Origin: Escherichia phage TrudiRoth | DNA: 64,000 bases | Sequence record: MZ501109 | Strand: one strand, 5' to 3' | Shown here: in pieces, positions 4,025-60,147 of the stretch | How positions within the stretch are numbered: position 1 is the first letter of the stretch | Layout of the letters: each line of letters starts with the position of its first letter | Made by a program: the position numbers and the translations under genes | The notes under the pieces: model-generated | What the model was told of the DNA's origin: nothing | Seen by the model: only the letters and a program-made list of their open reading frames with translations | The model's database searches: none

Positions 4025-6358
4025 ATGAGCCATCGTATCGAAAAAGTAATTAAACGTGACGGTACTGTTCAGGACTTTGCTCCTGAAAAACTCAATGATT
4101 GGGCTGCATGGGCATGTAAAGATACTGACGTAAGTTGGTCTGCCGTAGTTATGGCTGCCCTGAAAAATCTACCCAAAGGTGTTGTAGACTCCGATACACT
4201 CCAAGATGTGTTAATTAAAGCCGCTGAAGGTCTTATCAAAGACAACCCAGCATATGATACTGTAGCAAAGGAATTACGTCTTGCGCAGATGCGTAAACGC
4301 CTATATGATTCTTTTGAACCTCCTTCTCTGCGTTTCTTCCACGATCATATGGTTCGTGTCGGCGCTTGGGAAGACATGAGTGCATGGATTAGCGATGATC
4401 AGTTTGAAGCTCTGAACCAAGTTATTGATCATGATCGTGATCGTTTATTCACCAGTGGTGGACTGAAACAGTTCTTCGACAAGTATTCCCGTCGTAATAT
4501 TGCAACTGGTGAAATTTATGAAACCCCGCAGTTTGCCTACATGGGTATGGCAATGGCGATGTTATCTCAACCTAACTGGACAATTCTCGATGCAATCGAC
4601 CTCTACAACGCAATGTCACTCCATAAAATCAACGTGCCGACTCCACCTCTCGTGGGTCTTAGGAGCAGCGACCGCGGTTTTGCTTCTTGTTGTCTTGTTG
4701 ATAGTACTGATACCCTCGATTCAATCGACACAGCCGAGCACATCGTCTTCAAAATGGTCGCAGCCAGAGCGGGAATCGGGTATCATCTTGAAAGCCGATC
4801 AATTGCTGATCCGGTGCGAAATGGGGCATTCCCGCATTCCGGAAAACTGCCATATTATCGACACATTGACCGATCAGTAAAAGCTAACACTCAGCAAACC
4901 CGTGGTGGTTCTGCTACTGTGTCTTACCCATACTTCGATCCTGAAATCATTCAGTTGATGCAGGTTAAGCAGCAACGTGCTACAGACGAGAATAAAATCG
5001 ATAAGATGGATTACTCTCTGAGCTTTAACAACCTTCTGTTAAAACGTTACCTGAAAAATGAAGATATTACGCTAATGTCCTACTTCTACGCACCAGAAGT
5101 TCATGAAGCGTTTTATGGCGAAGATGAGGCTAAGTTTGAAGAAATCTACGTGGCAGCGGAGAAACGTGTGGCATCTCTTACAAAGATCGACCACGAAGGA
5201 AAAACAATTCCAGCAGCTCCTAGAATCTCTGCAAAAGAAATCCTAGATACTTGGTTACGTATCCGTATGGAAACAGGGCGTATGTATGCTCATCACATTG
5301 GTGAATCTAACCGTCATGGTAACTTCCTTGACCCGATTCGTATGACCAACCTTTGTGTTGAAATTACTCAGCCAACCCGTCCATTCCATCACATTACGGA
5401 GCTGTATAAGACCCAAGATCAGTTAGACGATATGCGTCCAGAGGACATTGGTGAAGTATCTCTGTGTAACTTAGGTGGTGTTGTACTAGGTCGCATGGAA
5501 TCTCTGGCTGAATGGGAGAAAACTTGCTACATCCTTCTGAAATTCGTTGATACAATCATCGAGATTCAGGATTATCCATTCCCAACCATGGAATACACGG
5601 CTAAGAAACGTCGTAACGTTGGTATTGGTCTGATGAACGCAGCAGGTGCAATGGCAGCAGAAGGTTTGGCTTACGAAGGTGTTGAAGCACGTAACTGGAT
5701 TCACCGTGAAGCTGAAAAGCTGTCCTACTTCCTGCACAAAGCCTCTGTACGTCTGGCCAAAGAACAGGGTGCATGTGACTGGTTTAATCGTACTAAGCCT
5801 TCACAAGGAACTCTGGTAATCGACACGTATAAGAAAACTGTTGATGAACTGGTAACTGTAGGTCTAGAAATGGATTGGGAATCTCTACGTGCAGATATCC
5901 TGAAATATGGTATGCGTAACTCCGTTCTGACTGCTCAGATGCCGGGTGAAAGTTCCTCTGTACTGCTAGGTGTTACTAACTCTATTGAACCGCCTCGTAA
6001 GATTGTATCTATCAAGGGTAGTGCAGTGAATAAAGTAATTGCAATTGCTCCAGGTGCAACTGATTGGGATACATTAATGAGCTATAAACTGGCTTATGAT
6101 GTAGATCGTATCGAGTGGATCAAATGGGTAGCAACCATGCAGAAATTCTTCAGTCAGTCTATAAGTACGAATATGTACTATGACTACACCAAGTTTGAGA
6201 ATGAAATTATTCCTGGCCCAGTAGTAGTTCGTGACTTCATGACTGCTGTTAAGTACGGTTGGAAAACTTTCTACTATGCAAACTTTAACACCGAGAATGG
6301 TGGTGGTGCAGGGGAAGAAACTGCTGCTGGATGCGCATCAGGTGGTTGTAACCTGTAA
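4025..6358 (+). CDS. nrdA: ribonucleotide reductase class Ia large subunit
   Basis: ATP-cone-like N-terminus (KRDGTVQDF), NLCVEI active-site loop, C-terminal Cys pair; ORF opens at 3965 but ATG 4025 has RBS AAGGAAA and matches the NrdA N-terminus. Confidence 0.9.
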   Translation: MSHRIEKVIKRDGTVQDFAPEKLNDWAAWACKDTDVSWSAVVMAALKNLPKGVVDSDTLQDVLIKAAEGLIKDNPAYDTVAKELRLAQMRKRLYDSFEPPSLRFFHDHMVRVGAWEDMSAWISDDQFEALNQVIDHDRDRLFTSGGLKQFFDKYSRRNIATGEIYETPQFAYMGMAMAMLSQPNWTILDAIDLYNAMSLHKINVPTPPLVGLRSSDRGFASCCLVDSTDTLDSIDTAEHIVFKMVAARAGIGYHLESRSIADPVRNGAFPHSGKLPYYRHIDRSVKANTQQTRGGSATVSYPYFDPEIIQLMQVKQQRATDENKIDKMDYSLSFNNLLLKRYLKNEDITLMSYFYAPEVHEAFYGEDEAKFEEIYVAAEKRVASLTKIDHEGKTIPAAPRISAKEILDTWLRIRMETGRMYAHHIGESNRHGNFLDPIRMTNLCVEITQPTRPFHHITELYKTQDQLDDMRPEDIGEVSLCNLGGVVLGRMESLAEWEKTCYILLKFVDTIIEIQDYPFPTMEYTAKKRRNVGIGLMNAAGAMAAEGLAYEGVEARNWIHREAEKLSYFLHKASVRLAKEQGACDWFNRTKPSQGTLVIDTYKKTVDELVTVGLEMDWESLRADILKYGMRNSVLTAQMPGESSSVLLGVTNSIEPPRKIVSIKGSAVNKVIAIAPGATDWDTLMSYKLAYDVDRIEWIKWVATMQKFFSQSISTNMYYDYTKFENEIIPGPVVVRDFMTAVKYGWKTFYYANFNTENGGGAGEETAAGCASGGCNL

Positions 6359-50418: not shown

Positions 50419-50462
50419 ATTTCTAGGAGACATTTTTTGAAAACACATTTCTGGAAATTACT

Positions 50463-51062
50463 GTCGGATTTGCACATTACATTTCTAGAAATTTATGGTC
50501 GGATTTGCACATTGATAGGAGTCTCCAAAGTTTTTAGGAACACTGAAAATAGCAGCATTATTTCGGGCCGAAGGCCCATATTTGCCTGAGTTTTTAGAGC
50601 CACAGGAATTTTCACTTGTCAAGCGATTTTGCCCCATTTTGCTAATAAAATTTCGCTTTATCTCCCCTAATCTCAATTCTAGCCAAAACATCCCGCATTA
50701 TCCTCAAAAATGCAGCAAACCGGTGCTAAAGCACCATCACCGCTGCTCCTTCCGTAGTTCCTCCCAAAATCTCATCGGATTCGCACTTCTCCCCAAACTC
50801 ACACAATCACACACCCTCTCATCGAAGTCACAAAAATCTTGTCGGATTTGCACACCTTAACACTTGTCGGATTTGCACATACTCTAGTAAACCCAGCTGG
50901 ATTGCATCGCAGTTGCGGATTGCTGGAGTTTTTAGGAAAATTCATTGTCGGATTTGCACACTATAAAAATTTTTCGGGTAGGATTTGCACATTACCAAAA
51001 ATTGTCGGATTCGCACATACACGCCAGCACGTAACCCATGGAGCAAATGTCGGATTTGCACA
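50463..51062. repeat. about nine dispersed direct copies of a GTCGGATTTGCACA-like 14-mer
   Basis: Exact copies at 50463, 50498, 50841, 50866, 50947 and 51049; variants at 50774 (ATCGGATTCGCAC), 50978 (GTAGGATTTGCACA) and 51004 (GTCGGATTCGCACA). Confidence 0.85.
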
Positions 51063-51090
51063 AAAGCGCAGGGCAATTTGCCCTGCCTGC

Positions 51091-51250: not shown

Positions 51251-51268
51251 GAAACACTGTTATTTAAG

Positions 51269-51351
51269 TTATCCACAGGTTTATTAACAGCACGATCTGA
51301 CTTGACAAAATCCTAGTGATTTTGAGGCGTTATCCACAGACTTATCAACAG
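51269..51351 (+). promoter_or_regulatory. two iteron-like 22-bp repeats each containing a consensus DnaA box
   Basis: TTATCCACAGGTTTATTAACAG at 51269 and TTATCCACAGACTTATCAACAG at 51330. Confidence 0.6.
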
Positions 51352-51360
51352 GTTATTCTA

Positions 51361-51378
51361 CTGTATATTTATACAGTA
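51361..51378. repeat. 18-bp near-palindrome CTGTATATTTATACAGTA, copy 1
   Basis: Identical 18-mer recurs at 55075-55092 on the other side of the - strand block. Confidence 0.8.
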
Positions 51379-53776: not shown

Positions 53777-53804
53777 AATTAGTCTCCTAACTAAAAGGGA
53801 AAGC

Positions 53805-53818
53805 GGGGATTATTCCCC
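53805..53818 (-). terminator. GGGGA-UUAU-UCCCC hairpin, member of a recurring motif
   Basis: Same motif as 57277-57294, in the sense orientation of the local genes, between - strand ORFs. Confidence 0.4.
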
Positions 53819-53829
53819 ACTAGTAATTA

Positions 53830-54825
53830 TTATTCACTTTCGGTGTTAGTGGTAAAGGTAGAAATGTCAATACCTTTTACCATTTCGTCGATCATTTCAG
53901 CAATATTGAAACTCTGTACCATTTCCAACATTGCCGCTTCCATTGCCGCGCCTGCTACCGCTTTCGCTTTCTGATTAGTCGGGGCGTACTGGTCAACTGC
54001 TACGCTTAACAGGTTAGCGATCACTATACGACCAATCGGCGTATCGATATAACCTTTAATCATAAACGGCGCTTTTTTCGCCGCTACTTTCGTGATTTGA
54101 GTTAATGCAATTTTACCCGCTTCCAGTTTTGCAGCATTTACAACAGCGGATTTATTAGCAGCAACGATAGAAGATACTTTAGTCATGATATTTCCTTTAT
54201 TTTCAGTAGTTTGCGCATTTGCGCTTGAAGTTTGAGAGTTTACAGCCTGTTTTGCTACGTTGTCAACTGGTTTTAGTGTAAATCCAGCGTTTGCAACGTT
54301 TGATTCATTCCCATACTCTAAATAATCGTTAGGGATCAACATGTTACCGCTAGCGCGTTCAAAACACAATACGCCAGTTGTTTCGATTGCGTCACTATCC
54401 GCACGTTTAATGGCGCTTGTCAATTCGCCCCAAATGCTAGACAGTAAATCTTCTACATCTCTGGAATTAATACCATTTACGCGAGTAGCGAAAACCATTT
54501 CTTTTTCTTGTACATTGTAACCACGGGCAATATAGCTTTTTTCGTCGTGACCTACAATGATAAAATCAATATCGCTTCCCCGCTGATTTCGTATGATGTG
54601 ATAGTCACGGTTGTAAAGCACTAGAACGCGGCTAGGGTCTAGTAATAGCGTGAAATCATCGACTGAATAATGAGTATCATTATTATCTAAAATATCATCG
54701 TGAATCTTTTCAACCATTGCCACCGTATGTTGTAGGCTTGCTGGACTTGATCCGTCTAGCAGGTTGCGCAAAATACCCTTAATAATAGTGGCGTTTGCTG
54801 GTACTGCAATTCTTACAGTAGACAT
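53830..54825 (-). CDS. hypothetical protein
   Basis: 331 aa, first and largest gene of the - strand block; Ala/Val/Asn-rich central region. Confidence 0.55.
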   Translation of the reverse strand: MSTVRIAVPANATIIKGILRNLLDGSSPASLQHTVAMVEKIHDDILDNNDTHYSVDDFTLLLDPSRVLVLYNRDYHIIRNQRGSDIDFIIVGHDEKSYIARGYNVQEKEMVFATRVNGINSRDVEDLLSSIWGELTSAIKRADSDAIETTGVLCFERASGNMLIPNDYLEYGNESNVANAGFTLKPVDNVAKQAVNSQTSSANAQTTENKGNIMTKVSSIVAANKSAVVNAAKLEAGKIALTQITKVAAKKAPFMIKGYIDTPIGRIVIANLLSVAVDQYAPTNQKAKAVAGAAMEAAMLEMVQSFNIAEMIDEMVKGIDISTFTTNTESE

Positions 54826-55074
54826 TTCTTTGTCTCCCTCGTTAATCGGTGAGTGAATGATATAGATAATTGTTCGCTATGGGCAAGAAAAAAGAAAAGG
54901 TTTTTTATTCCTTGCCTAACGCTTGTTTTTATGATACCCGCGTGTTTTCTATTTCTAGCTCTCTGTAAGCGTACACAAGGCTTTATTATAATAAGGGTAG
55001 CAGTGAGAAAACGCCGTGTAGCGTGTTCTAGACCTCTTAAATTTGATTGCGGTTGTTACTGCTACCATTCTACC

Positions 55075-55092
55075 CTGTATATTTATACAGTA
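55075..55092. repeat. 18-bp near-palindrome CTGTATATTTATACAGTA, copy 2
   Basis: Identical to 51361-51378. Confidence 0.8.
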
Positions 55093-55112
55093 GGATAACC
55101 TGTATATAAGTC

Positions 55113-55170
55113 TGTGGATAAGTCGCCAAATCGTCGCCTATTACGTCAAGTTATTTTGTGCTGTGGATAA
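55113..55170 (-). promoter_or_regulatory. two consensus DnaA boxes in inverted orientation
   Basis: TGTGGATAA at 55113-55121 and 55162-55170; an 8/9 box AGTGGATAA at 55447-55455. Confidence 0.6.
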
Positions 55171-55831
55171 CTTTGGGGATAAGTTAAATGATAGTGGTTC
55201 TCACTTAGCCCGATAGTTTCTCATAGTTATTATTTCTCTTTAATTTATAAGTATATTATATAATATGAAATAGTTAGTTGGCTAATAGGTTTTTAGAGTA
55301 TTAATAGTCTGCTAATAATAACGCATGTTACAATCCACCAGCGTGATTATCATCCTAGCGACTATTAGCGTGCTAATGACCTGATACACGTCCAGACTTA
55401 TTTGTCAATGAAAAATAATAGCAGAAAATACTTTTTTGAAAAATCAAGTGGATAACTCATTAAATTTCATTTTTGCTTTTTGTATAAGTTATTAACAGGG
55501 TCTAAAACGCTCTGTAACGCATTCTAAGCGCCTCAAAGGAAAAGATAGGCAATCATAAGGAGTACACCGAGAAAACCTCACCACTAGCGAAATAAGTTTT
55601 GTCAAGTACCCCAAAGCAGATATAAATGAAAAAATTACTTGCTAAAATGGTTGTTTTGATGTTATTCGCGCGCCCGTTTCATTTAATTTTAGGCAGTCGC
55701 TGGACGTGGTGCGGTGGCGTTTGTCCTTACGTTTCTTTACAAAAATAAGGTTGCGCCCTTCTCGGTATTCTCCTATTATTTATCACGTAGGGCGGCAATG
55801 ACGAACTACACGGCGGAGAAGTTTACCACCG

Positions 55832-55870
55832 CGCTCTTTAAAAACTAGGGAACATCTTAAAGCCTATCGG
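55832..55870. repeat. left arm of a ~40-bp inverted repeat
   Basis: CGCTCTTTAAAAACTAGGGAACATCTTAAAGCCTATCGG; its reverse complement occurs at 56277-56315 with one mismatch. Confidence 0.85.
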
Positions 55871-55903
55871 CGGTAAACTTATATAATATAAGGAATCGAC
55901 GAT

Positions 55904-56062
55904 ATGACAACAATATTTAACGATCATCCAGCTACCCACGACACGATCGAAAAAATCGAACAATGGGTAAAGACTGCAAATGAATACTATGCTAATCATT
56001 CGGAAGCGGTAATAATCTGCAATGATGGGAATGGTTTATATGCTTTGGAGGATCTCAAATGA
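55904..56062 (+). CDS. small hypothetical protein
   Basis: 52-aa ORF translated by hand; RBS AAGGAA; stop overlaps the next start (ATGA). Confidence 0.35.
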   Translation: MTTIFNDHPATHDTIEKIEQWVKTANEYYANHSEAVIICNDGNGLYALEDLK

Positions 56063-56268
56063 AACAAACGCTTTTGATCACTGGCAAGCCTATCAAGTCA
56101 CTTGATAGCAGAACAAAAAATTTGTTGATAGTAGCGCAAAAATCGGTAAAATACCGATTCAAGCAGTACAAGAAAGGAAGGCAGCAAGGTCTGGAAATGG
56201 TGTGGCGTAATATAATGATTGATTTATATAACTCCCATCAAATCGAAAAAAGTTTAAAAAACGCTTGA
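56059..56268 (+). CDS. small basic protein
   Basis: 69-aa ORF coupled to the previous one; the pair is flanked by a ~40-bp inverted repeat. Confidence 0.4.
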   Translation: MKQTLLITGKPIKSLDSRTKNLLIVAQKSVKYRFKQYKKGRQQGLEMVWRNIMIDLYNSHQIEKSLKNA

Positions 56269-56276
56269 TACGCTAG

Positions 56277-56315
56277 CCGATAGGTTTTAAGATGTTCCCT
56301 AGTTTTTAAAGAGCG
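56277..56315. repeat. right arm of a ~40-bp inverted repeat
   Basis: CCGATAGGTTTTAAGATGTTCCCTAGTTTTTAAAGAGCG. Confidence 0.85.
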
Positions 56316-56499
56316 ATAACTTGATAAAATTTGACGGTCGGCACTTACCATAATGTGCCCCGCCCCCTAACTGGGATATAGCGGCCCGCGTGGAGTTCTT
56401 TAAATTTATTATACTGGCGAGCGGATTATAATCTAATAGCGTTTCAACGTATCGAGGCGCTATTGTGGAATAATCCCCCAATAAACCGGAGTATTAAAA

Positions 56500-56751
56500 A
56501 TGCAAAACGTTATTACCGCGCCGAAAGTAGGTCAATCTGTTTTCATTCCTTTTGTAACTAAAACGGATGAATTAACCGGAAAAGCCGAACGTATTAAAGG
56601 TGTGGCGCTTGATCCTTTCGATAAAATCGAAGCGGTATACGCGGAAACGGAACGGAGTAACAACGGCAAGCCAATTTATAACGTTCGCGTTAAATCCGGC
56701 GACGTTGTAAAGATCATTCAGAAAGATGATAAATGGCAAGCTATTAGCTAA
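56500..56751 (+). CDS. hypothetical protein
   Basis: 83-aa ORF with RBS; hairpin follows. Confidence 0.45.
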   Translation: MQNVITAPKVGQSVFIPFVTKTDELTGKAERIKGVALDPFDKIEAVYAETERSNNGKPIYNVRVKSGDVVKIIQKDDKWQAIS

Positions 56752-56850
56752 TTAGTGCTAACTTTATATTCCCCTGAAATATGGGGAATATATGGATTAA
56801 CATTAGTTAATCATAATCCCTTAATTAATAATTGAATGGAGTATTAAATT

Positions 56851-57267
56851 ATGTCTAACGTTAAAACCGAAAAAGCCGCAAAATTCGCATGGAATGAAGA
56901 AAACACTGAAAAAGCCGTTTCTATGTATTCTGAAATGGTCGCTAAAAGCGGAATTGAATTTGCTAACACTGACGGCTTAAAAGAAATCGCCGCCGCCGTT
57001 GGCGCGGCTTCTCCCGTGTCTGTTCGCTCAAAATTGACCAGCGCAAAAGCCTACCAGAAAAGCGATAAACCTCGCAAAGTTGGCGGTGGTAGCTCAATCC
57101 GTAAAGCTCACTATGTGCGCGTCATTGCTAAACATGCCATTGATAGCGGCATTGTAAAAGACGCCGACGATCTGGCAAGTCTGGAAAGCGCAAAATTGGA
57201 AACGCTGGACGCCGTAGCGCAATTGTTAGGCGTAGCGGAGGAAGTAAAACAGGCCGCAGGCGAATAA
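56851..57267 (+). CDS. pre-early protein, possible A2-like
   Basis: 138 aa immediately upstream of the A1-like gene; assignment is positional only. Confidence 0.4.
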   Translation: MSNVKTEKAAKFAWNEENTEKAVSMYSEMVAKSGIEFANTDGLKEIAAAVGAASPVSVRSKLTSAKAYQKSDKPRKVGGGSSIRKAHYVRVIAKHAIDSGIVKDADDLASLESAKLETLDAVAQLLGVAEEVKQAAGE

Positions 57268-57276
57268 ATTTAATCA

Positions 57277-57294
57277 GTGGGGAATAATCCCCAC
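57277..57294 (+). terminator. GUGGGGA-AUAA-UCCCCAC hairpin, member of a recurring motif
   Basis: 7-bp perfect stem 10 nt after the stop of ORF 56851..57267; related hairpin at 56768-56786. Confidence 0.45.
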
Positions 57295-57316
57295 TATCCC
57301 TTAAAGGAGAATAATT

Positions 57317-57541
57317 TTGATCTTTTATCCTAGCGAAGCGTTTATTTTGGGCTTATTTATAGTTGCCGCCGCTTTTATTCTGAATTATACGCGGTCAATT
57401 CTGGCAATAATCGGAATTAATAACGTTTACGCCGCAAATAATTTCCGCAAAAACGCGAATATTCAAAAATATATGTCAATCATCTTTCTTACAATTGGCA
57501 TTGTATTTGGCTTTTGTTCTAGTTTAACGCCGATTAATTAA
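57317..57541 (+). CDS. small membrane protein
   Basis: 74 aa with two hydrophobic segments. Confidence 0.35.
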   Translation: MIFYPSEAFILGLFIVAAAFILNYTRSILAIIGINNVYAANNFRKNANIQKYMSIIFLTIGIVFGFCSSLTPIN

Positions 57542-57653
57542 ATGTTGCAAATTATAACGCCTTTAAAAGTCCTCACTTCAGGCAAGGCGTTATATTTGGC
57601 AATATTGCCAGCTTTAAAATGTTTTAAATCCCTTTAATGGAGTTACTTAACTT

Positions 57654-60059: not shown

Positions 60060-60147
60060 TAGTTAATTGAACATTGCCAGCTAATCTAATATAATTAGCT
60101 GGCAAGATTGAATTAACCCTAAACCCCTTAAATGGAGAATGTAGCAA

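What the first reader, a model, noticed from the sequence alone, without database searches (positions are those of the whole stretch)
55832..56315. Two overlapping small genes flanked by a ~40-bp inverted repeat
Arms at 55832-55870 and 56277-56315 are reverse complements with one mismatch. They tightly enclose a -10-like TATAAT (55882-55887) and two translationally coupled small ORFs (52 aa at 55904-56062 and 69 aa basic at 56059-56268, overlap ATGA). The layout fits a MITE-like insertion carrying cargo, a pair of operator or recombination sites, or a small toxin-antitoxin-like module.
Basis: seen in the sequence. Interest (0 to 1): 0.6.

Follow-up and report, generated by a model that had tools for sequence, protein, structure and literature searches.

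The report
Inverted repeat bracketing a division-inhibitor gene cassette
In a T5-like phage, a 40-base inverted repeat tightly encloses the gene for a known host cell-division inhibitor (Hdi) plus a small accessory gene, and comparison with relatives suggests, without proving, that the two arms pair in the early messenger RNA rather than marking a mobile element or a toxin-antitoxin pair.

Summary
The arms (55832-55871 and 56276-56315) are 40 nt with one mismatch, and they enclose two ATGA-coupled ORFs.

The window is a T5-like Salmonella phage (Epseptimavirus). The locus lies in the terminal-repeat pre-early region.

- **ORF2:** it is the orthologue (70% aa identity, Pfam DUF7416) of T5.008/Hdi, an experimentally shown FtsZ inhibitor that is toxic when expressed.
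- **ORF1:** it is a real but sporadic accessory gene, found in 46 phage records against 512 for Hdi.
- **The repeat:** it probably corresponds to the "IRA/IRA'" repeat already noted in T5. It sits at this syntenic site in every relative examined.

The cargo between the arms varies: hdi alone, ORF1+hdi, another small ORF with or without hdi. The arms stay 22-34 nt before the first ATG and 6-12 nt after the last stop. Across genera the arm sequence changes, in one case completely, yet the arms remain complementary.

Within the T5 clade, mismatches are mostly G·U on the transcribed strand. This favours a long-range mRNA stem, most plausibly an RNase III or stability bracket. The strand asymmetry does not hold across deeper lineages.

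A MITE, an invertible switch and a toxin-antitoxin module are not supported. Interest is moderate.

The parts
55832..55871 (+). Left arm of the inverted repeat. The outer part is CGCTCTTTAAAAACTA. The inner core GGGAACATCTTAAAGCCTATCGGC is conserved in T5-like phages.
56276..56315 (+). Right arm of the inverted repeat. It begins 7 nt after the ORF2 stop codon. Its single mismatch with the left arm is a G·U pair on the + strand (G55862 with T56285).
55904..56062 (+). ORF1: 52 aa, acidic, PHROG 21018, function unknown. It is an accessory gene absent from T5, where the 155-nt difference is bounded by ATGA microhomology. Its SD is AAGGA at 55890-55894.
56059..56268 (+). ORF2: 69 aa, basic. It is the orthologue of T5.008/Hdi (FtsZ inhibitor, host division inhibitor), Pfam DUF7416. 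Its SD is GGAGGA at 56047-56052.
56113..56177 (+). Homologue of the T5 pre-early promoter P-H22, lying inside ORF2: -35 TTGATA at 56125-56130 and -10 TAAAAT at 56147-56152. It drives the downstream pre-early genes. Its transcripts carry only the right arm.
55751..55779 (+). Inferred sigma-70 promoter for the cassette: TTGCGC, 17 nt, TATTAT. The hexamers and upstream A/T block are invariant among relatives while the spacer varies. The predicted start (~55786) lies about 45 nt upstream of the left arm.
   Evidence: inference from the conservation pattern; not an experimental start site
55811..55833 (+). Conserved G+C-rich leader hairpin: GGCGG, 8-9 nt, CCGCC in relatives, weaker in the window. 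It abuts the left arm and is followed by CGCUCUUUAAAAA.

Best explanation
The repeat is a conserved bracket around a small-gene slot in the pre-early (first-step-transfer) operon of a T5-like phage.

**What the slot holds.** It holds hdi, whose T5 orthologue stops host cell division by destabilising FtsZ rings. In this lineage it also holds an accessory 52-aa gene, translationally coupled in front of hdi.

**Proposed mechanism (inferred, not shown).** A transcript starting about 45 nt upstream of the left arm contains both arms. The arms pair into a 25-43-bp long-range RNA helix. The helix closes the coding cassette into a loop, with its base about 30 nt before the first start codon and 7 nt after the last stop codon. 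A helix of this length is a natural substrate for host RNase III. Cleavage would cut the hdi message out of the polycistronic pre-early RNA and leave base-paired ends that protect it. Without cleavage, the helix would still shield the cassette from exonucleases and 5'-end-dependent decay. The perfect 40-bp version in this window is probably an older imperfect repeat (T5 type: core helix, internal loop, 6-7 bp outer helix) extended by quasipalindrome correction.

**Shown.** The anatomy, the orthology to Hdi, the conservation and covariation of the arms, the variable cargo and the strand bias of the mismatches.

**Inferred.** Co-transcription of both arms, RNA pairing in vivo, and RNase III cleavage or stabilisation.
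For: - **Identity of the locus.** The window matches T5-like Epseptimavirus genomes, and the locus lies in the terminal repeat upstream of the T5.007, A2, A1 and dmp homologues.
- **ORF2 = Hdi.** It is 70% identical to T5.008, matches DUF7416 at E = 8.9e-39, and shows synonymous changes and an in-frame indel against T5. The function of T5 Hdi is experimental.
- **Arms conserved at the same site.** They are present in all ~60 loci examined.
- **Complementarity kept despite sequence change.** This holds in Klebsiella-type phages, Slocum and My1. In L107 the arms share no sequence with T5.
- **Constant geometry whatever the cargo.** The left arm ends 22-34 nt before the first ATG and the right arm starts 6-12 nt after the last stop.
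- **Variable spacing.** Arm spacing of 217-410 nt is irrelevant for RNA pairing but awkward for DNA looping.
- **Pair counts on 18 distinct arm haplotypes.** 98.9% of cells are paired and 4 pairs change on both sides. The path C-G to U·G to U-A is seen at one pair, and none of 500 shuffles reach the covariation score. L016 has a compensating 1-nt insertion in both arms.
- **Strand bias of mismatches.** 28 G·U cells at 10 positions on the + strand, against 4 A·C cells, all singletons.
- **Polymorphism direction.** Wobble-making changes outnumber others 11:4 in the arms against 86:98 in the flanks (Fisher one-sided p = 0.042).
- **Duplex energy.** The sense duplex is more stable than the antisense duplex in 19 of 22 haplotypes.
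- **Folding.** The whole element folds with the closing stem (z = -8.9).
- **Candidate upstream promoter.** Its hexamers are invariant and its spacer variable.
- **Similar hairpins nearby.** Other ~20-bp hairpins sit between pre-early cistrons, as in T7 early RNA.
Against: - No transcript ends, RNase III data or start site upstream of the left arm are available. Co-transcription rests on a predicted promoter.
- The strand asymmetry is carried mainly by polymorphisms within the T5/Epseptimavirus clade, whose haplotypes are not independent.
- At the level of deep lineages the picture is mixed: T5 clade, Klebsiella type and L107 favour the sense strand, DT57C and My1 favour the antisense strand, and Slocum is neutral. 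Counting transition mismatches by site, including the second brackets of My1 and L107, gives about 16 sense-type against 8 antisense-type. This is my own tally.
- The inner core (CTTAAAGCC...ATCGGC) is conserved in sequence across several genera. A sequence-specific protein site would also predict this.
- A G+C hairpin followed by CUCUUUAAAAA immediately precedes the left arm and could terminate some upstream transcripts.
- The experimentally validated pre-early promoter P-H22 lies inside hdi, so many pre-early transcripts carry only the right arm.
- No Rfam family matches.
Confidence: 0.5

Rival explanations
1. The arms are two DNA binding sites for a phage or host protein, for example a pre-early shut-off factor such as A1/A2. 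The sites flank the internal promoter P-H22 and repress or organise pre-early transcription, possibly by looping.
For: A validated pre-early promoter lies between the arms. The inner core of the arms is conserved in sequence across several genera. Pre-early genes are known to be shut off in an A1-dependent way. Identical sites in inverted orientation would also give apparent covariation.
Against: Each arm is not itself palindromic. Arm spacing varies from 217 to 410 nt with no helical phasing. In L107 the arms share no sequence with T5 yet keep their position and complementarity. Mismatches in the T5 clade are biased to G·U on one strand, which a duplex-DNA site does not predict. The arms track start and stop codons, not the promoter.
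Confidence: 0.17
2. The repeat has no function of its own. It is a quasipalindrome kept similar by template switching or gene conversion, or it is simply conserved boundary sequence that lets co-infecting phages swap small-gene cassettes by homologous recombination.
For: Cargo between the arms is highly variable while the flanks are conserved. The window lineage shows an arm extended to perfect complementarity. Two nearby hairpins have flipped loops in some relatives, which shows that palindrome-mediated DNA rearrangements occur here. A direct-repeat motif GCTCTTTAAMAAYT also flanks the cassette in several lineages.
Against: Boundary homology does not require inverted orientation. Complementarity is retained after complete sequence turnover between genera. 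Crossing-over between inverted arms should invert the cassette, yet none of ~60 loci is inverted. Conversion does not predict a one-strand wobble bias.
Confidence: 0.18
3. It is a MITE-like or other mobile insertion carrying two genes as cargo.
For: Terminal inverted repeats of 40 nt enclose a compact two-gene unit. ORF1 shows presence/absence polymorphism.
Against: There is no target-site duplication. The arm sequence matches only the two arms themselves in the window. The arms are at the same syntenic site in all relatives, with no empty site seen. The polymorphic unit is ORF1 alone, inside the arms, with ATGA microhomology at its borders. No transposase is present.
Confidence: 0.02
4. ORF1 and ORF2 form a toxin-antitoxin-like pair: an acidic neutraliser followed by a basic toxin, with the repeat as autoregulatory operators.
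For: The layout is acidic 52 aa followed by basic 69 aa with an ATGA overlap. The ORF2 orthologue is toxic when expressed alone. Other lineages also place a small acidic ORF directly before hdi.
Against: Hdi occurs without ORF1 in most phages, including T5, where it acts on the host as a takeover factor. DT57C-type phages keep the first-position gene without hdi. Neither protein matches a TA family. The setting is a virulent phage's injected early operon, not an addiction context.
Confidence: 0.05

Closest known systems
T5 gene T5.008 (hdi) and the 'IRA/IRA'' repeats of 'Repeat Region 1' in the T5 left terminal repeat
   Same: The locus is the same. ORF2 is 70% identical to T5 Hdi. The arm cores align base for base with the T5 sequence flanking T5.008, and the internal promoter P-H22 is conserved. 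[quoted passage not shown]
   Different: T5 has hdi alone between the arms, and its arms are a 24-25-bp core, an internal loop and a 6-7-bp outer helix. The window has an extra gene (ORF1) and a near-perfect 40-bp repeat. Davison treated the region as untranslated. I could not read the original definition of IRA (Wang 2005; Davison 2015 not held), so equating this repeat with IRA/IRA' is inferred from coordinates.
RNase III processing sites of phage T7 early mRNA
   Same: Both involve host-polymerase-transcribed, injected-first operons of host-takeover genes, including an FtsZ inhibitor (T7 gp0.4). In both, ~20-bp helices sit at cistron boundaries. Comparable local hairpins exist here at 56423-56477, 57541-57606 and 60062-60117. 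The knowledge of T7 is my own, not a tool result.
   Different: T7 sites are local hairpins, whereas here the helix is long-range (404 nt of coding sequence in the loop). No cleavage has been shown for T5-like phages, and I found no literature linking T5 and RNase III.
Processing stalks flanking 16S and 23S rRNA in bacterial rRNA precursors
   Same: Complementary sequences on either side of the cargo pair into a long helix that RNase III cuts, releasing the enclosed RNA. This is established knowledge.
   Different: The cargo here is a translated mRNA of 250-400 nt, not a structural RNA. Cleavage is untested.
Promoter-early stem-loop (PeSL) cassettes of T4-type phages
   Same: Short conserved regulatory motifs flank small, rapidly shuffled early ORFs in a hyperplastic region. 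Here the motif GCTCTTTAAMAAYT flanks the cassette as a direct repeat in several lineages, and the cargo is shuffled. The knowledge of PeSLs is my own.
   Different: PeSLs are direct repeats of promoter plus terminator. The feature here is an inverted repeat whose complementarity is what is conserved.

Membership tests
Hdi / T5.008 family (Pfam DUF7416, PHROG 4718) | Sequence homology to T5.008 over its full length | tested here: met
   70% identity to T5.008. DUF7416 E = 8.9e-39 over residues 1-69. PHROG 4718 E = 9.9e-37.
Hdi / T5.008 family (Pfam DUF7416, PHROG 4718) | Position in the pre-early terminal-repeat operon directly upstream of the T5.007 homologue | tested here: met
   Synteny with T5, Seafire and chee130_1.
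Hdi / T5.008 family (Pfam DUF7416, PHROG 4718) | Inhibits FtsZ ring formation; toxic on expression | not testable with these tools
   Shown only for T5 Hdi.
MITE / IR-bounded mobile element | Target-site duplication flanking the terminal repeats | tested here: not met
   Flanks are TACCACCG and ATAACTTG.
MITE / IR-bounded mobile element | Multiple copies, or occupied versus empty sites among relatives | tested here: not met
   Only the two arms match in the window. The arms are present at the same site in all relatives examined.
Type II toxin-antitoxin module | Obligate co-occurrence of the two genes | tested here: not met
   Hdi is in 512 phage records and ORF1 in 46. DT57C has a first-position gene without hdi.
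Type II toxin-antitoxin module | Membership of known toxin or antitoxin protein families | tested here: not met
   No Pfam or PHROG TA family matches. PADLOC was not searched.
Invertible DNA switch (IR-flanked promoter) | Both orientations of the enclosed segment occur | tested here: not met
   hdi is in the same orientation as the T5.007 homologue in every locus where it was found.
RNase III long-range processing helix | At least ~20 bp of RNA duplex formed by the two arms | tested here: met
   The predicted closing stem is 43 bp in the window. RNAduplex energies are -36 to -69 kcal/mol across lineages. This is in silico only.
RNase III long-range processing helix | Pairing maintained by compensatory change, on the transcribed strand | tested here: inconclusive
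   Covariation and wobble bias are clear within the T5 clade. Complementarity is kept after sequence turnover. The strand bias is not consistent across deep lineages.
RNase III long-range processing helix | Both arms on one transcript and cleavage in the helix | not testable with these tools
   Only an inferred upstream promoter is available. No transcript data.
Intrinsic (bidirectional) terminator | Short hairpin followed by a U tract | tested here: not met
   The arms are 404 nt apart and the scan reports no terminator at either arm.

The most novel reading that the evidence does not exclude
T5-like phages use long-range RNA brackets to define plug-in expression slots for small host-takeover genes. 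The helix closes each cassette into a loop flush with its ribosome-binding site and stop codon. It is cut by RNase III, or recycles ribosomes, so that whatever gene lands in the slot is expressed correctly. My1 and L107 have a second such bracket just upstream. The acidic first-position proteins (ORF1 and the 'ORFz' family) might additionally modulate Hdi.
Probability: 0.25. Interest if true: 0.6.

Novelty: new member of a known kind. Interest (0 to 1): 0.4.

Why it matters
Hdi is one of the few T5 pre-early proteins with a known function. The conserved repeats of the T5 terminal repeat have been catalogued for two decades without a role being assigned to IRA/IRA'. Two things give that repeat a concrete, testable job in pre-early mRNA processing or stability. 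First, it precisely brackets hdi and its variable companions. Second, it stays complementary even after its sequence is completely replaced. This would also explain how small host-takeover genes can be swapped in and out of the injected-first operon without disturbing its expression. If the RNA reading is wrong, the locus is simply an orthologue of a described T5 locus with one extra orphan gene.

Tried and rejected
- **The TATAAT at 55882-55887 as the cassette promoter.** Rejected: it is not conserved, it has no usable -35, and a start there would remove the SD.
- **Rfam.** No match at E <= 1 on either strand of 54800-57300.
- **ORF1 function.** No Pfam hit and a PHROG of unknown function. 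Only 6 close clusters were found among 5.8 billion proteins. The AlphaFold model had mean pLDDT 56.8, so no fold search was run.
- **ORF1 versus the DT57C 56-aa ORF.** The similarity is weak (E = 0.044-0.07), so I do not claim homology.
- **Literature.** Davison 2015 is not held. No paper links T5 with RNase III. No transcription start-site map of the T5 pre-early region was found.
- **Nick-site idea for the GCGC next to the left arm.** Dropped: T5 itself has CACGCTC there.
- **A first fuzzy-regex arm search.** It timed out and was replaced by blastn-short.
- **Promoter readings of the motif GCTCTTTAAAAATTGGG.** No -10 lies at a workable distance.

Full report
**Observation.** The inverted repeat is real. 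The arms are 55832-55871 and 56276-56315: 40 nt, one mismatch, 404 nt apart. No other copy exists in the window, and no match appeared in 100 shuffles. The arms enclose ORF1 (55904-56062, 52 aa) and ORF2 (56059-56268, 69 aa), which overlap by ATGA. ORF1 is acidic (pI 4.6) and ORF2 basic (pI 10.4). There is no target-site duplication.

**Where this is.** The region matches more than 500 T5-like phage genomes. The best matches are Salmonella Epseptimaviruses such as Tennessee and Seafire. In annotated relatives and in T5 it lies 4-5 kb inside the terminal repeat. That is the pre-early, first-step-transfer DNA, upstream of the homologues of T5.007, A2, A1 and dmp. The window's + strand is the sense strand of that operon. 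The injection-stop repeat region, with its DnaA boxes and the long IRC/IRD-type repeats, lies at 50.4-51.4 kb and 55.07-55.13 kb.

**The genes.**
- **ORF2.** It is the orthologue of T5.008: 70% identity, synonymous substitutions and an in-frame 6-nt indel against T5, Pfam DUF7416 at E = 8.9e-39 and PHROG 4718. T5.008 is Hdi. Expressed alone it stops growth of E. coli, Salmonella, Shigella and Enterobacter. Resistance maps to ftsZ (G191, F268). It dissolves FtsZ rings within about 10 min of infection and gives T5 a competitive advantage. Homologues occur in 512 phage records.
- **ORF1.** It is also a real gene. Its length is fixed at 52 aa. Synonymous codon differences exceed non-synonymous ones (16 against 10 versus chee24), and Serratia phage Slocum has a 45% identical homologue. 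It is sporadic, occurring in 46 records and always immediately before hdi. In T5 it is exactly absent, with ATGA microhomology at the junction. Its function is unknown. It belongs to PHROG 21018, has no Pfam hit, and has only six close clusters in the large protein database. The structure model was of low confidence.

**The repeat in relatives.** Davison's comparison of T5-like phages lists an untranslated "Repeat Region 1" (T5 4682-5310). [quoted passage not shown] The coordinates fit the arms that flank T5.008, so the repeat itself has probably been noted before.

In all ~60 loci I collected from viral and metagenomic contigs and GenBank, the arms sit at the same place. Several forms occur:
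- **T5 type:** a 24-25-bp core, an internal loop and a 6-7-bp outer helix.
- **Window/Seafire type:** extended to a nearly perfect 40 bp. The extended right arm is seen in about 77 records.
- **chee130 type:** the outer right arm is replaced by a direct copy of GCTCTTTAAMAATTTGG.
- **More distant phages:** Klebsiella-type phages, Slocum and My1 have arms of 27-29 nt that differ from T5 but remain complementary.
- **L107:** this contig's T5.007 homologue is only 49% identical, and its arms share no sequence with T5. They are 29 nt, 86% complementary and in the same position.

**Variable cargo, constant geometry.** Between the arms I found:
- hdi alone (T5);
- ORF1+hdi (window);
- an unrelated 56-57-aa ORF alone (DT57C, Gostya9 and others; 12 records; unannotated in DT57C);
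- that ORF plus hdi (UTK0009);
- a related 55-aa ORF plus hdi (Klebsiella type, L107);
- hdi plus a 53-aa ORF (My1).

In every case checked in detail, the left arm ends 22-34 nt before the first start codon and the right arm starts 6-12 nt after the last stop codon. So the arms belong to the frame, not to the cargo. That rules out a mobile element carrying these genes. It also argues against an obligate two-gene (toxin-antitoxin) unit.

**RNA or DNA?** Several observations favour pairing of the arms within one strand, namely the transcribed one.
- **Pair counts.** On 18 distinct arm haplotypes, 98.9% of cells form standard pairs and four pairs change on both sides. One pair shows the series C-G, U·G, U-A. 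None of 500 shuffles reach the observed covariation score. L016 carries a matching 1-nt insertion in both arms.
- **Type of mismatch.** Non-Watson-Crick cells are 28 G·U at 10 positions on the + strand. Only 4 are A·C, all singletons.
- **Direction of polymorphism.** Taking the majority base at each column as the original, changes that create + strand wobbles (C>T, A>G) outnumber the opposite class 11:4 in the arms. In the flanking ~1 kb the ratio is 86:98, so there is no general mutational strand bias (Fisher one-sided p = 0.042).
- **Duplex energy.** The sense duplex is more stable than the antisense duplex in 19 of 22 haplotypes.
- **Spacing.** Arm spacing varies from 217 to 410 nt with no helical phasing. 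That is irrelevant for an RNA helix but unfavourable for DNA looping.
- **Orientation.** No locus has the cassette inverted. This argues against an invertible switch and against frequent recombination between the arms.
- **Folding.** The 546-nt RNA folds with a 43-bp closing stem (z = -8.9).

**Caveats.** The haplotypes are related, so the cell counts overstate the number of independent events. Among deep lineages the strand preference is mixed. The T5 clade, the Klebsiella type and L107 favour the sense strand. DT57C and My1 favour the antisense strand, and Slocum is neutral. By site, including the second brackets of My1 and L107, my tally is about 16 sense-type against 8 antisense-type transition mismatches. 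The inner core sequence is conserved across several genera, which a protein site would also explain.

**Transcription.** The only experimentally supported promoter here, P-H22, lies inside hdi. In T5 it is at 4799-4873, which maps to window 56113-56177 (TTGATA, 16 nt, TAAAAT). Primer extension showed it is active as a pre-early promoter. Its transcripts carry only the right arm. hdi therefore needs an upstream promoter.

A better candidate is TTGCGC (55751-55756), 17 nt, TATTAT (55774-55779). Its hexamers and the A/T-rich block upstream are invariant across relatives, while the spacer varies in sequence and by one base in length. It would start transcription about 45 nt before the left arm. 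This is inference.

Between this promoter and the arm lies a conserved G+C hairpin followed by CGCUCUUUAAAAA. That could be a leaky terminator or part of an alternative-pairing leader, because GGCGG occurs three times and CCGCC once. I could not resolve its role.

**Mechanism I commit to.** I propose a long-range mRNA helix that brackets the hdi slot (confidence about 0.5). Its most likely role is as an RNase III processing and/or stabilising element. This would resemble the stalks that flank rRNAs and the RNase III sites that punctuate T7 early RNA. Other ~20-bp hairpins sit just upstream of the T5.007, A1 and dmp homologues. That fits a processed polycistronic operon. The 40-bp perfection in this lineage is best explained by quasipalindrome correction. 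Flipped hairpin loops in some relatives show that such palindrome-mediated events occur here.

**Rivals.** The alternatives are paired protein-binding sites around P-H22 (0.17), functionless or recombination-boundary repeats (0.18), a toxin-antitoxin pair (0.05) and a MITE (0.02).

**Novelty and interest.** The genes and the repeat are orthologues of features already described in T5. The window adds an orphan accessory gene and an extended repeat. As far as I could check, three points have not been reported:
- the repeat exactly brackets hdi;
- the bracket is a conserved slot with variable cargo across the subfamily and beyond;
- complementarity survives complete sequence replacement.

This makes a long-catalogued but unexplained T5 repeat directly testable. 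I rate the interest as moderate (0.4).

Noticed in passing
window 50455-51065, 51268-51351, and 51321-51376 with 55075-55130: There are eight copies of a 25-nt unit with the core GTCGGATTTGCACA and TTATCCACA (DnaA-box) repeats. A 56-nt, 84% inverted repeat lies 3.7 kb apart. This is the injection-stop (iss) region and the IRC/IRD-type long-range repeats described for T5.
   Followed up: partly
window 56423-56477, 57541-57606, 60062-60117: Stem-loops of about 20 bp with internal loops lie just upstream of the ribosome sites of the T5.007, A1 and dmp homologues (z = -2.6, -2.2, -5.4). The first shows compensatory changes among relatives (ACCTGC/GCAGGT, ATCTGC/GCAGAT, AGCGCC/GGCGCT). They resemble T7 RNase III sites.
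   Followed up: partly
L009 and L028 about 1975-1995; L020 5'UTR of the T5.007 homologue: Two conserved hairpins have their loops exactly reverse-complemented in some phages: GAAGTTTA to TAAACTTC, and CTACTTTCTAG to CTAGAAAGTAG. These are small palindrome-mediated inversions.
   Followed up: no
window 55833-55846(+) and 56301-56314(-); L043 1240-1253 and 1727-1740; L041 1813-1826 and 2292-2305; L002 4933-4946 and 5410-5423: The motif GCTCTTTAAMAAYT precedes the left arm everywhere. In Klebsiella-type, My1 and chee130-type phages a second direct copy follows the right arm. In the window the second copy is inverted and forms the outer arm. Its role is unexplained; a processing or termination signal is possible.
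   Followed up: partly
L041 (My1) 1514-1551 with 1784-1821; L107 797-823 with 964-990: A second inverted-repeat bracket lies immediately upstream of the hdi bracket in distant relatives. In My1 it encloses a 65-aa ORF. In L107 it encloses about 140 nt that may encode a small membrane peptide.
   Followed up: partly
window 53795-53843 with 57254-57302: This is a 49-nt, 78% inverted repeat whose centre is the hairpin GGGGATTATTCCCC / GGGGAATAATCCCC. One copy sits just past the stop of the 331-aa minus-strand ORF (T5.011 homologue) and the other just past the A2 homologue. The same hairpin is used at the 3' ends of genes on opposite strands.
   Followed up: no
window 55626-55670: AAATGAAAAAATTACTTGCTAAAATGG is nearly invariant in relatives and resembles the A-tract plus TTGCTT -35 of classical T5 promoters. 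Some records annotate an ORF (MKKLLAK...) starting here, but downstream indels break the frame between phages, so it is probably not coding.
   Followed up: partly
window 55910-55883, minus strand: A promoter-like site (TTGTCA, 16 nt, TATTAT; 10 of 12 matches) points leftward out of the start of ORF1 across the left arm. A similar arrangement (TTGTTT, 16 nt, TATAAT) exists in T5. A possible antisense transcript was not examined.
   Followed up: no
L063 (DT57C) 4424-4594 minus strand; L044 (Slocum) 1261-1665: These look like annotation problems in public records. The 56-aa ORF between the DT57C arms is unannotated. Slocum CDS_010 (134 aa) appears over-extended upstream, swallowing the left arm; the conserved part starts at the ATG at 1498.
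   Followed up: partly
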